Positions 18,001 to 21,000 of a stretch of 64,000 nt of DNA are shown one piece after another. The stretch lies in assembly GCF_988242995.1 (NCBI RefSeq), contig NZ_OZ547043.1; one strand, written 5' to 3'. Made by a program: the position numbers. Position 1 is the first letter of the stretch. Each line of letters begins with the position of its first letter.

Positions 18001-21000
18001 TGGTTAAACGCCGAAACTGTACAGACGCAAACCTATGAATTATGCGATGGCGTCGCTGGCGGCTATGACTGGCAACGCGTACGACAGCTTGCCGCCGAAG
18101 CCCGTTGTGGTTCTGTGCGGATGGTTGGCATTCCTCTGCCGCTACTCACCTGCCTTGCGGATATCAGTACTGCGTTGAGTCGCCTGGCAGGTAAAGAACC
18201 TATGCTGACCCGCTCGAAAATTCGTGAATTAACCCACGCCGACTGGTCGGCAAATAATAACCGTATTTCTGAAGATATTAATTGGTTTCCCGGGATTAGC
18301 CTGGAACACGCATTACGCAACGGGCTATTTTGATTGTCTTGTTTAAAGGTGTGTTAACGTTTCTATGGTAAATCGTGAAATAGTAATGGATTACATCCTT
18401 TCCTGTTTACAGGATTTGGTCGAAAACGGTGTGGAAATTAAGCCCGACAGCGATCTCGTCAACGATCTTGGCCTGGAGTCGATCAAAGTGATGGATCTCT
18501 TAATGATGCTGGAAGACAGATTCGATATTTCCATTCCTATTAATATTCTGCTGGATGTCAAAACCCCTGCGCAATTAATGGAAACACTACTTCCATGGCT
18601 GGAGAATAAATAATGGGGCTATACGATAAATATGCGCGCCTTGCTGGCGAGCGACTGCAATTTAGTGACAACGGGTTAACACCGTTTGGCACCTGTATTG
18701 ATGAAGTGTATTCCGCCACCGAAGGTCGGATCGGCAATAAAAAAGTGATTCTGGCCGGGACCAATAATTATCTCGGTTTAACCTTTAATCATGATGCCAT
18801 CGCCGAAGGTCAGGCAGCATTAGCGGCCCAAGGCACCGGCACCACCGGTTCTCGTATGGCAAACGGCAGTTATGCGCCGCATCTGGCGTTAGAGAAAGAG
18901 ATCGCCGAGTTTTTTAATCGCCCTACCGCTATCGTTTTTTCAACCGGTTATACCGCTAATTTAGGCGTCATCAGCGCACTTGCCGACCATAACGCCGTGG
19001 TGTTACTGGATGCCGACAGCCACGCCAGTATTTATGACGCCTGTTCTCTCGGTGGCGCGGAAATTATTCGTTTCCGCCATAACGATGCTAAAGATCTGGA
19101 ACGGCGCATGGTTCGCCTCGGTGAACGGGCAAAAGAGGCGATTATCATCGTTGAAGGCATCTACAGTATGCTCGGTGACGTTGCGCCGCTGGCGGAAATT
19201 GTTGATATCAAACGTCGTCTCGGTGGTTATTTGATTGTCGATGAAGCGCATTCGTTTGGCGTGTTAGGCGCAACGGGGCGCGGACTGGCTGAAGCCGTTG
19301 GCGTTGAAGATGATGTGGATATTATCGTTGGTACTTTCAGTAAAAGTCTGGCCTCGATTGGCGGTTTTGCTGTCGGTTCGGAAGCGATGGAAGTGCTGCG
19401 CTACGGCAGCCGCCCGTATATTTTTACCGCCTCTCCTTCTCCGTCCTGCATTGCGACCGTGCGCTCGTCGTTAAGAACCATTGCTACACAACCAGAGTTG
19501 CGGCAAAAGCTGATGGATAATGCCAACCATCTGTATGACGGTCTGCAAAAACTGGGTTATGAGTTAAGTTCACATATTAGCCCGGTAGTGCCAGTAATAA
19601 TCGGTTCGAAAGAGGAAGGTTTACGCATCTGGCGCGAGCTTATTTCGCTGGGCGTTTATGTGAATCTTATCCTGCCACCTGCCGCGCCTGCAGGCATCAC
19701 GCTGCTGCGCTGTAGCGTAAACGCTGCCCACAGTCGTGAGCAAATCGATGCCATCATTCAGGCATTTGCTACTCTGAAGCAGTAATGTGAGCCCGCTGTG
19801 GTGCTGCGCCACGGCGGGTTTAATGTTGACTGTCATACCAATACACCAGGCTCAACGCCACCAGCACAAACACTATCGGTAAACCGAGCGCGGTAACAGG
19901 TGCGCTCAACGCAAATAACAATCCCAGATTGACCATGATTTGATAGCTGATCCAGGTGAGTAAGCCAACGATGACGCCTACAGCGAGACGGCTACCCATC
20001 CCTGGCGAGCGCGGGGCGCTAAAGGTAAACGGCACAGCCAGCAAAATCATCGCCAGAGTTAAGATGGGTTGCCCCAGTTTTTCCCACAGTGCAAGGCGGT
20101 AATCGCTGCTGGGTTGCCCGGTTTCCTGCAAATAATGGATGTAATGATTAAGCTGACGGACAGAAAAAGTATTCCCCGGCATCGATAACTCTTCAAGATC
20201 CATACTGGTGAAGGCCGATTGCCAGGCAAGATTATCTGATGTTTCCAGCGTTTCTTTGCCATTCAACCATTTTTTATGATTCACACCATGCAGGATCCAC
20301 GTTTTGTCGTCTTCAATGGAGGCACTGCGTGCAAAAATGTAGGATTCGAGCGAGAGATCGTCGCGATAATGAAATATCTCCACGCCCACAGGCTGGCCCT
20401 GCTCGTTCAGCGATTTCACCGTCACAAATTCATTACCGCGCCTGGCCCAAAGCATATTGCCGGTAATGTCATCGTCCTCCCCCAACGCGGTGGCAGTCGA
20501 TTTGATTTGCAGCGCCTGTTGCTGCAATGGCGACGCCACCCACTCATCTATCGCGCCTAACGAAACAGTCCACAATATCCCGGCAACCAGCGCCACCAGT
20601 GCAATACGGAAGATAGAAAACCCAGTGCTGCGAATGGCGGTAAGCTCACTGTTTTTCGATAACTGCCCCAGGCCAACAATCCCTCCCAATAATGCGATAA
20701 ACGGCGAAAGTTCGACCAGTGTACGCGGTAAGGTCATCAGCACCACCAGCACCGCCTGAGTCCAGCGATAACCACCCGGGCTGACATCATCCAGTTCGTT
20801 AATCAGGTTGAAGGTGGTAAAAAGCGGCAGCAATAGCCCTGCGGCGGCGGCAAAACCGAGAAAGAGATGACGGATTAAATAGCGACTGAAAACATTCATC
20901 GGGAAAATTTCTGCAGCAATGAGAAGTCGCGTGCGACCAGCATCAGCAGGCCCATTAGCATGAGTCCGGGTACTAACCACAAACCAGGAATGAGGGGAAT

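What the first reader, a model, noticed from the sequence alone, without database searches (positions are those of the whole stretch)
18365..18613. Dedicated small ACP with Glu-Ser in place of the canonical Asp-Ser phosphopantetheine site
The 82-aa protein aligns by eye with AcpP helix II (NDLGLESIKVMDLLMMLEDRF), but the residue preceding the presumed phosphopantetheinylated Ser is Glu, not Asp. A pathway-dedicated ACP suggests substrate channelling separate from fatty-acid synthesis.
Basis: seen in the sequence. Interest (0 to 1): 0.5.

Follow-up and report, generated by a model that had tools for sequence, protein, structure and literature searches.

The report
Known sphingolipid ACP (AcpR) of E. 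coli
This small gene encodes AcpR, the already characterised acyl carrier protein that hands fatty acids to serine palmitoyltransferase in the E. coli sphingolipid gene cluster, and its Glu-Ser attachment site is a harmless variant typical of its lineage rather than an anomaly.

Summary
Window 18365-18613 (+) encodes an 82-aa PP-binding protein (Pfam 51.4 bits against a cut-off of 20.8). Its attachment serine is S39, the first residue of predicted helix II, and it is preceded by Glu38 where AcpP has Asp35.

The interpretation as a pathway-dedicated ACP is also correct, but it is not new. The protein is 100% identical to BL21(DE3) ECD_02853, which is AcpR-Ec. The published cloning primers match the window exactly at both ORF ends. 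Padilla-Gomez et al. 2022 (PMC9386255) showed that this protein incorporates beta-[3H]alanine in vivo. They also showed that it supports 3-oxo-sphinganine formation together with its cognate acyl-ACP synthetase AasR-Ec and SPT-Ec. Those are the genes at window 15671-17422 and 18613-19785.

Glu-Ser is not an oddity of this family. In 79 species-level spt loci, an ACP lies immediately upstream of spt, and the residue before Ser is D (42), E (18, all Enterobacterales), S (10) or T (10). More distant AcpR-like proteins also carry E, A or N there.

So this is a conservative, clade-typical substitution at a variable position, and it is compatible with phosphopantetheinylation. In passing: in this strain IS4 disrupts yghO, the cluster's N-acyltransferase gene.

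The parts
18365..18613 (+). acpR: specialised 82-aa acyl carrier protein. The 4'-phosphopantetheine site is S39 (codon 18479-18481), preceded by E38 (18476-18478).
   Evidence: Pfam PP-binding at 51.4 bits. 100% amino-acid identity to BL21(DE3) WP_000248097.1 / ECD_02853, with one synonymous nucleotide difference. The published cloning primers oLOP432/433 match 18365-18388 and 18594-18613. The AF2 model has pLDDT 86 and helix II starts at S39. The Foldseek top 50 PDB hits are all ACPs.
18613..19785 (+). spt: serine palmitoyltransferase, the PLP-dependent alpha-oxoamine synthase that consumes acyl-AcpR. Its start codon overlaps the acpR stop codon by 1 nt (TAATG).
   Evidence: NCBIfam NF047599 SerpalmtaseBetaP at 600 bits against a cut-off of 500. 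PDB best hit is S. paucimobilis SPT 2jg2, E=8e-112. Primers oLOP434/435 for ECD_02854 match 18613-18637 and 19758-19785.
15671..17422 (+). aasR: fatty acyl-AMP ligase family enzyme, the acyl-AcpR synthetase that loads the ACP. These coordinates give the longest ORF. RefSeq annotations in close genomes correspond to starts at about 15698 or 15734.
   Evidence: NCBIfam NF006624 fatty acyl-AMP ligase at 870 bits against a cut-off of 600. 553 residues are identical to the 563-aa BL21 protein at the ECD_02851 position. Function from PMC9386255.
17419..18333 (+). epi/cerR-like NAD(P)-dependent SDR, the presumed 3-keto reductase of the pathway. It overlaps aasR by 4 nt.
   Evidence: Pfam Epimerase at E=2.6e-23. 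It occupies the position of ECD_02852 'epi' in PMC9386255 section 13.
12745..15326 (-). yghO ('aca', the N-acyltransferase/ceramide-synthase homologue of the cluster), split after about codon 68 by an IS4 insertion.
   Evidence: blastn against the intact yghO in L001 breaks at 13683/15110, with 13 bp duplicated. Assignment of yghO to the cluster follows PMC9386255 section 13.
13684..15109 (+). IS4 element of 1426 bp (transposase ORF 13750-15096), flanked by a 13-bp target-site duplication (13671-13683 = 15110-15122).
   Evidence: Pfam Nterm_IS4 plus DDE_Tnp_1. Boundaries. No complete E. coli genome in the collection carries this insertion.
19820..21966 (-). Second lptG (19820-20899) and lptF (20896-21966) paralogues, convergent with spt. 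These are the likely sphingolipid exporter components.
   Evidence: Pfam LptF_LptG at 235 and 184 bits. RefSeq annotation in L001. A role for LptFG paralogues in sphingolipid transport is reported for Caulobacter, with the E. coli UTI89 locus drawn in the same paper (bioRxiv 10.64898/2026.04.12.717747).

Best explanation
The ORF is acpR, the specialised acyl carrier protein of the proteobacterial sphingolipid pathway. Apo-AcpR is converted to holo-AcpR by a phosphopantetheinyl transferase encoded elsewhere in the genome, which attaches 4'-phosphopantetheine to Ser39 at the N-terminus of helix II. AasR, the FAAL-type acyl-ACP synthetase two genes upstream, adenylates a free long-chain fatty acid and transfers it to the AcpR thiol. 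The serine palmitoyltransferase is encoded immediately downstream and is translationally coupled to acpR. It condenses acyl-AcpR with L-serine to give 3-oxo-sphinganine. Glu38 keeps the negative charge that Asp provides in the canonical D-S-L motif, so the site remains a substrate for the PPTase.

Shown in the literature for the identical protein: beta-alanine labelling, and 3-oxo-sphinganine formation that depends on AcpR-Ec, AasR-Ec and SPT-Ec together.

Inferred: that Ser39 is the modified residue (from alignment and from its invariance), which PPTase acts on it, and that Glu38 is functionally equivalent to Asp.
For: Identity with the characterised protein:
- 100% amino-acid identity with BL21(DE3) ECD_02853.
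- Exact matches of the published cloning primers at both ends of the ORF.

Published experiments (PMC9386255):
- AcpR-Ec is beta-[3H]alanine labelled in E. coli OG7001.
- Co-expression of AcpR-Ec, AasR-Ec and SPT-Ec gives 3-oxo-sphinganine.
- AasR-Ec works with AcpR-Ec but not with AcpR-Cc.
- The +340.5 Da adduct was measured on the Caulobacter orthologue.

Family and fold:
- Pfam PP-binding is above its cut-off.
- The AF2 model shows a four-helix ACP fold with S39 as the first residue of helix II.
- All top Foldseek PDB hits are ACPs, with TM 0.7-0.84.

Genomic context:
- The aasR-epi-acpR-spt operon has 4-nt and 1-nt gene overlaps.
- An ACP lies directly upstream of spt in 79 of 80 species loci.
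- S39, E50 and P58 are invariant across 35 diverse AcpRs.
- No PPTase gene is present in the window.

Glu-Ser:
- E-S is fixed in all 18 enterobacterial species sampled and recurs in distant AcpR-like proteins. One of these, P0232, sits in an epimerase-ACP-aminotransferase (SPT-like)-flippase-LptFG locus.
Against: The intact-mass measurement of the phosphopantetheine adduct and the in-vitro acylation kinetics were reported for the Caulobacter protein, not for AcpR-Ec. For AcpR-Ec the evidence is radiolabelling and in-vivo product formation under overexpression. I found no report that wild E. coli strains make sphingolipids from this locus. In this particular strain yghO is disrupted by IS4, so the pathway downstream of the ACP step may be truncated or the cluster may be decaying. 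Ser39 itself has not been mutated.
Confidence: 0.93

Rival explanations
1. The Glu-for-Asp change marks a degenerate or inactive carrier protein that is no longer phosphopantetheinylated, i.e. a relic gene in a decaying island.
For: Asp35 of ACP contacts Arg14 of AcpS and helps orient Ser36 (PMC3447402 citing Parris 2000). In this strain the neighbouring yghO is inactivated by IS4. One E. albertii variant has Val at this position (P0104).
Against: The identical protein incorporates beta-[3H]alanine in vivo and supports 3-oxo-sphinganine synthesis (PMC9386255). E-S is conserved across 18 enterobacterial species whose acpR, aasR, epi and spt genes were all detected as homologous reading frames of high score. 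The gene differs from BL21 by a single synonymous change. Glu keeps the charge. The same family tolerates S, T, A and N at this position.
Confidence: 0.02
2. The ACP feeds a product other than a sphingolipid in E. coli. The Spt-like enzyme would natively make a different alpha-oxoamine, for example a signalling alpha-hydroxyketone or an amino-lipid, or the ACP would donate acyl groups to an LPS-related pathway encoded by the flanking lptFG, flippase-like and yghQRST genes.
For: The Spt protein also scores against CqsA-type autoinducer synthase, BioF and Kbl models, as expected for the alpha-oxoamine synthase family. The flanking genes are annotated as LPS-related. I found no paper reporting native sphingolipids in E. 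coli.
Against: The Spt protein passes the equivalog cut-off of the betaproteobacterial-type SPT model (600 against 500) and is far below the cut-offs of the other families. SPT-Ec made a compound that co-migrates with 3-oxo-sphinganine (PMC9386255). The complete five-gene ceramide set is clustered here as it is in Caulobacter. LptFG paralogues are themselves implicated in sphingolipid transport.
Confidence: 0.05

Closest known systems
AcpR-Ec (ECD_02853, ACT44657.1 / WP_000248097.1) of E. coli BL21(DE3), Padilla-Gomez et al. 2022
   Same: Identical amino-acid sequence, the same ORF boundaries, and the same operon order aasR-epi-acpR-spt next to yghO and glcC.
   Different: One synonymous nucleotide change in acpR. 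The neighbouring genes differ by a few percent. In this strain yghO carries an IS4 insertion.
AcpR-Cc (CC_1163) of Caulobacter crescentus
   Same: A specialised ACP directly upstream of spt. It is loaded by a dedicated AasR and is the preferred SPT substrate. It shares the ED-x-F-D-I-S-x-P signature after helix II.
   Different: The uncultured Caulobacter sp. MAG loci sampled here, used as a proxy for AcpR-Cc (CC_1163 itself was not sequenced or aligned here), are only about 25% identical to the window protein over the full-length alignment. The paper reports 41% over 61% coverage for CC_1163 against ECD_02853. Those proxy loci have Asp-Ser where the window has Glu-Ser. AasR-Ec does not use AcpR-Cc.
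Housekeeping AcpP of E. coli (fatty-acid synthesis)
   Same: The same four-helix PP-binding fold, an acidic pI (4.05 for both), Ser at the N-terminus of helix II, and acidic residues retained in the C-terminal half of helix II.
   Different: Scores fall well below the AcpP equivalog cut-offs (33.7 against 70.45 for TIGR00517). It has E38 where AcpP has D35 and K41 where AcpP has D38. It is not in the fab cluster. In the Caulobacter system, AcpPs could not replace AcpR for 3-oxo-sphinganine formation.
Other specialised rhizobial ACPs (NodF, AcpXL, RkpF) and mitochondrial ACPs
   Same: Small stand-alone carrier proteins dedicated to a single lipid or glycan pathway. Mitochondrial ACPs are the closest solved structures by sequence (9iho_U, E=2.7e-7).
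   Different: Different partner enzymes and different products. In the published tree they group apart from AcpRs.

Membership tests
PP-binding / acyl carrier protein superfamily (PF00550) | Profile score above the curated threshold | tested here: met
   51.4 bits against a gathering score of 20.8, E=1.3e-13, covering profile positions 1-66 of 67.
PP-binding / acyl carrier protein superfamily (PF00550) | Helical bundle of three long helices plus a short helix III, with the conserved Ser at the N-terminus of helix II | tested here: met
   The AF2 model has pLDDT 86 and helices at 4-18, 39-53, 59-63 and 68-80, with S39 as the first residue of helix II. The Foldseek top 50 hits are all ACPs. This is a predicted structure, not an experimental one.
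PP-binding / acyl carrier protein superfamily (PF00550) | Covalent 4'-phosphopantetheine on the conserved Ser | not testable with these tools
   Published for the identical protein by beta-[3H]alanine labelling in vivo (PMC9386255). The +340.5 Da mass shift was measured on the Caulobacter orthologue. The modified residue has not been mapped in AcpR-Ec.
PP-binding / acyl carrier protein superfamily (PF00550) | Canonical Asp-Ser-Leu/Ile attachment motif | tested here: not met
   The sequence is Glu-Ser-Ile. This is a frequent feature rather than a defining one. The PROSITE phosphopantetheine pattern, as I recall it from memory, allows [DNEKHS] before Ser, and the window sequence matches that recalled pattern.
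AcpR (specialised ACP for bacterial serine palmitoyltransferase) | Gene immediately upstream of spt and co-transcribed with it | tested here: met
   The acpR stop codon overlaps the spt start codon by 1 nt. The same arrangement is seen in 79 of 80 species loci.
AcpR (specialised ACP for bacterial serine palmitoyltransferase) | Co-occurrence with a dedicated acyl-ACP synthetase, AasR (FAAL family) | tested here: met
   A FAAL gene lies at 15671-17422 in the same operon. An aasR homologue lies within 6 kb of spt in 57 of 80 loci.
AcpR (specialised ACP for bacterial serine palmitoyltransferase) | Sequence membership in the AcpR clade rather than among AcpP orthologues | tested here: met
   100% identical to AcpR-Ec. 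It shares the family-wide invariant S39, E50 and P58, and the nearly invariant D51, D54, S56 and T67. It is below every AcpP equivalog cut-off.
AcpR (specialised ACP for bacterial serine palmitoyltransferase) | Selective acylation by the cognate AasR and use as acyl donor by SPT | not testable with these tools
   Published in vivo for AcpR-Ec, AasR-Ec and SPT-Ec, and in vitro for the Caulobacter proteins (PMC9386255).
Housekeeping AcpP (TIGR00517 / NF002148) | Score above the equivalog or subfamily cut-off, and location in the fab gene cluster | tested here: not met
   33.7 bits against 70.45 and 35.6 bits against 71. The neighbours are aasR, epi and spt, not fabD, fabG or fabF.

The most novel reading that the evidence does not exclude
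The residue before the attachment Ser is E in Enterobacterales, D in most lineages, and S or T in a group of gammaproteobacterial loci with a different gene order. It could be a partner-specificity determinant. It might help explain why AasR-Ec acylates AcpR-Ec but not the Asp-Ser AcpR-Cc, or it might select which PPTase (AcpS, AcpT or EntD) activates the protein. Nothing here excludes this reading. It is confounded with phylogeny, and the two proteins differ at many other helix-II positions.
Probability: 0.1. Interest if true: 0.3.

Novelty: already known. Interest (0 to 1): 0.08.

Why it matters
The finding adds little. The gene, its product's prosthetic group, its loading enzyme and its consumer enzyme have all been published for an identical protein. 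The remaining value is modest. The survey made here shows that the position before the phosphopantetheinylated Ser is unusually free in AcpRs (D/E/S/T/A/N), whereas AcpP has Asp35 there. This fits a carrier protein that has to satisfy only three partners (PPTase, AasR, SPT). It also gives a simple set of natural variants for anyone studying carrier-protein recognition. Whether wild E. coli strains make sphingolipids from this widespread locus (77% of complete genomes) was not addressed by any paper my searches found. That question concerns the locus, not the Glu-Ser detail.

Tried and rejected
- **Non-ACP family:** rejected by the Pfam and NCBIfam scans, the PDB sequence search, the AF2 model and Foldseek.
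- **Chance ORF:** rejected by conservation and synteny.
- **Solved AcpR or SPT-AcpR structure:** none was found, either with the single sequence or with a family profile. Only generic ACPs were hit.
- **Dedicated PPTase in the window or in related loci:** It found only one Sfp-like ORF among the 80 loci, in L016 of Citrobacter youngae.
- **Literature on an 'ESL' variant of the DSL motif:** no paper contained all of the search terms.
- **First homology search:** the listed best 120 of 377 hits were all near-identical Escherichia/Shigella sequences, so it could not show family variation. This was solved by fetching spt loci from species-representative genomes and by the 50%-cluster representative search.
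- **Co-variation between the -1 residue and positions in AasR or SPT:** considered but not attempted. All E-type sequences in the genome sample form one clade, so any clade-specific change would co-vary trivially.
- **Promoter and terminator scan of the operon:** counts were no higher than in shuffled sequence.
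Full report
**What is in the sequence**

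Window 18365-18613 on the + strand is an ATG-initiated ORF of 82 codons. Its product is MVNREIVMDYILSCLQDLVENGVEIKPDSDLVNDLGLESIKVMDLLMMLEDRFDISIPINILLDVKTPAQLMETLLPWLENK. It matches Pfam PP-binding (PF00550) at E=1.3e-13, 51.4 bits against a gathering score of 20.8, over almost the whole profile.

HMMER alignments against solved structures place the query's G-L-E-S-I on G-L-D-S-L or G-A-D-S-L of mitochondrial and bacterial ACPs. A MAFFT alignment places E38-S39 on D35-S36 of E. coli AcpP.

An AlphaFold2 model built on 35 diverse relatives has mean pLDDT 86. It shows helices at 4-18, 39-53, 59-63 and 68-80, so Ser39 is the first residue of helix II as in all ACPs. The 50 best Foldseek matches in the PDB are all acyl carrier proteins, with TM 0.7-0.84. 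The protein is acidic, with the same computed pI of 4.05 as AcpP.

**Genomic context**

The gene is the third of a four-gene + strand block:
- a fatty acyl-AMP ligase family gene at 15671-17422 (NCBIfam NF006624, 870 bits against a cut-off of 600);
- an NAD(P)-dependent SDR/epimerase gene at 17419-18333, which overlaps the ligase gene by 4 nt;
- the ACP gene;
- a serine palmitoyltransferase gene at 18613-19785 (NF047599, 600 bits against 500; best PDB relative is Sphingomonas paucimobilis SPT, E=8e-112), whose ATG overlaps the ACP stop codon by 1 nt.

Upstream lie glcC and yghO. Downstream and convergent lies a second lptG/lptF pair, followed by yghQRST-type genes and pitB. The window is E. 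coli DNA. The 4.2-kb block is present at 95-99% identity in 4194 of 5426 complete E. coli genomes and is annotated there as 'fatty acyl-AMP ligase | epimerase | acyl carrier protein | spt'. A promoter/terminator scan found nothing above shuffled expectation inside the block, which is consistent with one operon.

**This exact protein has already been characterised**

Padilla-Gomez et al. 2022 (PMC9386255) studied 'AcpR', the specialised ACP of SPT-containing alpha-, beta- and gammaproteobacteria. Their set included ECD_02853 of E. coli BL21(DE3), together with ECD_02851 (AasR-Ec) and ECD_02854 (SPT-Ec).

I fetched the BL21(DE3) locus. The ACP just upstream of spt there (WP_000248097.1) is 100% identical in amino-acid sequence to the window protein, with a single synonymous nucleotide difference. 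SPT is 389/390 identical (390 of 391 codons compared include the stop).

The paper's cloning primers, listed in its supplement, match the window exactly:
- oLOP432 at 18365-18388 and oLOP433 at 18594-18613, for acpR;
- oLOP434 at 18613-18637 and oLOP435 at 19758-19785, for spt.

So the ORF boundaries are the same as those used experimentally. The paper reports the following:
- AcpR-Ec is labelled by beta-[3H]alanine, the precursor of 4'-phosphopantetheine, when it is expressed in E. coli OG7001.
- Co-expression of AcpR-Ec, AasR-Ec and SPT-Ec yields a compound that migrates like 3-oxo-sphinganine.
- AasR-Ec works with AcpR-Ec but not with Caulobacter AcpR.
- AasR-Cc uses AcpR-Ec less well than its own AcpR.
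- Housekeeping AcpPs do not substitute for AcpR in the Caulobacter system.
- SPT-Ec prefers acyl-AcpR as its thioester substrate.

The +340.5 Da mass shift on treatment with AcpS, and the further shift on acylation with palmitate, were measured for the Caulobacter orthologue. The first two have in substance been done and came out positive. I found no report of the S39A mutant or of an intact-mass measurement of AcpR-Ec itself.

**How unusual is Glu-Ser?**

A first homology search returned 377 hits, and the best 120 listed were all near-identical Escherichia or Shigella sequences. Of those 120, 119 keep E-S and one E. albertii cluster has V-S.

To see the whole family, I aligned the E. coli SPT with the S. 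paucimobilis SPT. I used that alignment to fetch spt loci from one genome per species. That gave 80 loci from Enterobacterales, other Gammaproteobacteria, Betaproteobacteria, Caulobacter, Nitrospirota and Desulfobacterota/Geobacter-type MAGs.

In 79 of the 80 loci, phmmer finds a homologue of the window ACP that ends at or within about 90 nt of the spt start. The residue before the conserved Ser is:
- D in 42;
- E in 18;
- S in 10;
- T in 10.

All 18 E-S sequences come from Enterobacterales: Escherichia, Pseudocitrobacter, Hafnia, Serratia, Shimwellia, Tatumella, Mangrovibacter, Erwinia, Citrobacter, Pluralibacter, Cedecea, Rosenbergiella and two MAGs.

Across 35 diverse members, the invariant positions are S39, E50 and P58. 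L31, L35, M43, D51, D54, S56 and T67 are nearly invariant. Together these give a family signature, ED-x-F-D-I-S-x-P, just after helix II. Position 38 is not conserved.

An exhaustive HMMER search of 1.84 billion 50%-identity cluster representatives gave the same picture. Among the small proteins in the 150 nearest clusters, the residue is D in 85, E in 25, S in 9, T in 2, A in 1 and N in 1. E-S also occurs in AcpR-like proteins that are only 40-49% identical to the query. One of these, P0232, lies in an epimerase - ACP - SPT-like aminotransferase - flippase - LptFG locus from an environmental metagenome.

Glu-Ser is therefore a conservative substitution that is typical of its clade, at a position that is variable in this family.

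Asp35 (with Asp38) of ACP contacts Arg14 of AcpS and helps orient Ser36 (PMC3447402, citing Parris et al. 2000). Glu retains that charge, and the published labelling shows that an E. coli PPTase accepts the site. From memory, the PROSITE phosphopantetheine-site pattern allows [DNEKHS] at this position. The window sequence matches that recalled pattern, but I could not check the pattern against its source.

**Mechanism (best explanation, confidence about 0.93)**

1. Apo-AcpR is phosphopantetheinylated on Ser39 by a PPTase encoded elsewhere. No AcpS- or Sfp-like ORF is in the window, and only one was found among the 80 related loci.
2. AasR adenylates a free fatty acid and loads it onto holo-AcpR.
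3. SPT condenses acyl-AcpR with L-serine to give 3-oxo-sphinganine.
4. The SDR and YghO homologues would then reduce and N-acylate the product, and the LptFG paralogues would export it.

Steps 1-3 rest on published experiments with the identical protein or with its Caulobacter orthologue. The identity of the PPTase, the assignment of Ser39, and the neutrality of Glu38 are inferences.

**Rival explanations**

- An inactive relic ACP. This is contradicted by the published labelling, by conservation of E-S across 18 species whose four operon genes were all detected as homologous reading frames, and by the single synonymous difference from BL21.
- A native product other than a sphingolipid. This is not excluded, because I found no paper showing sphingolipids in wild E. 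coli. It is disfavoured by the SPT equivalog score and by the published 3-oxo-sphinganine product.

**Comparison with known families**

The protein is a member of the PP-binding superfamily and of the AcpR family, and it is identical to a named member of the latter. It is not an AcpP orthologue: it scores 33.7 bits against a cut-off of 70.45 for TIGR00517. It has K41 where AcpP has D38, and it is not in a fab cluster. There is no solved AcpR structure. The closest solved sequences are mitochondrial ACPs and M. tuberculosis Rv0033.

**Novelty and score**

The finding is already known. The Glu-Ser detail is visible in the published alignment figure (Figure S9 legend) and has no demonstrated consequence.

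The most novel reading not excluded is that the -1 residue contributes to cognate AasR or PPTase specificity. I put its probability at about 0.1 and its interest as modest even if true. Overall interest is 0.08.

**Noticed in passing**

- A 1426-bp IS4 with a 13-bp target duplication splits yghO, the cluster's N-acyltransferase gene, in this strain. No complete E. coli genome in the collection has this insertion.
- LptFG paralogues accompany spt in about a third of the loci surveyed. This is a link already reported for Caulobacter and drawn for E. coli UTI89.
- Loci whose AcpR has T-S or S-S have a different gene order, with lptFG-like genes rather than aasR-epi upstream.

Noticed in passing
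window 13684-15109 (IS4); yghO fragments at 12745-13683 and 15110-15326 (- strand): A 1426-bp IS4 element (transposase ORF 13750-15096), with a 13-bp target-site duplication (13671-13683 = 15110-15122), interrupts yghO after about codon 68. yghO is the N-acyltransferase ('aca', ceramide-synthase homologue) of the same sphingolipid cluster. None of the 5426 complete E. coli genomes searched carries this insertion. In this strain the pathway is probably blocked after long-chain-base formation.
   Followed up: partly
window 19820-21966 (- strand): A second lptG/lptF pair lies convergent with spt. LptF/G-like genes lie within 6 kb of spt in 25-26 of 80 species loci. A 2026 preprint already implicates such paralogues in sphingolipid transport in Caulobacter and draws the E. 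coli UTI89 locus.
   Followed up: partly
loci L036, L037, L039, L042, L046, L047, L050, L051, L060, L061, L063, L074, L075, L078, L080 (gammaproteobacterial MAGs): In these loci the spt-adjacent ACP has Thr-Ser or Ser-Ser instead of Asp-Ser. No aasR-epi pair was detected upstream of acp-spt in any of them. In most (not L042 or L046) lptF/lptG-like genes lie upstream instead, and in L039, L075 and L078 aasR lies downstream. With Ser-Ser it is ambiguous which serine carries the cofactor.
   Followed up: no
locus L057, 3226-3474 and 3978-4226: Two copies of the acpR-like gene with identical phmmer scores and identical attachment-site context lie upstream of spt in a bivalve-symbiont gammaproteobacterial MAG.
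   Followed up: no
protein P0104 (E. albertii cluster, seen on 5 contigs): A natural AcpR variant has Val-Ser instead of Glu-Ser (…DLGLVSIKV…), along with a few other substitutions. It would be a ready-made test of whether an acidic residue before the Ser is needed.
   Followed up: no
window 22569-24742 and 24788-26291 (- strand), 26465-27157 (+): Downstream of lptF lie a YtfJ-family gene, a hypothetical gene, a Wzx-like 'lipopolysaccharide biosynthesis protein' and yghR/S/T-type P-loop genes (annotated dTMP kinase). Assignments come from comparison with the annotated L001 and L003 loci. A Polysacc_synt flippase-like gene and an LptF/LptG-like gene also follow spt in the distant metagenomic locus L085, which suggests a conserved export or modification module.
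   Followed up: no
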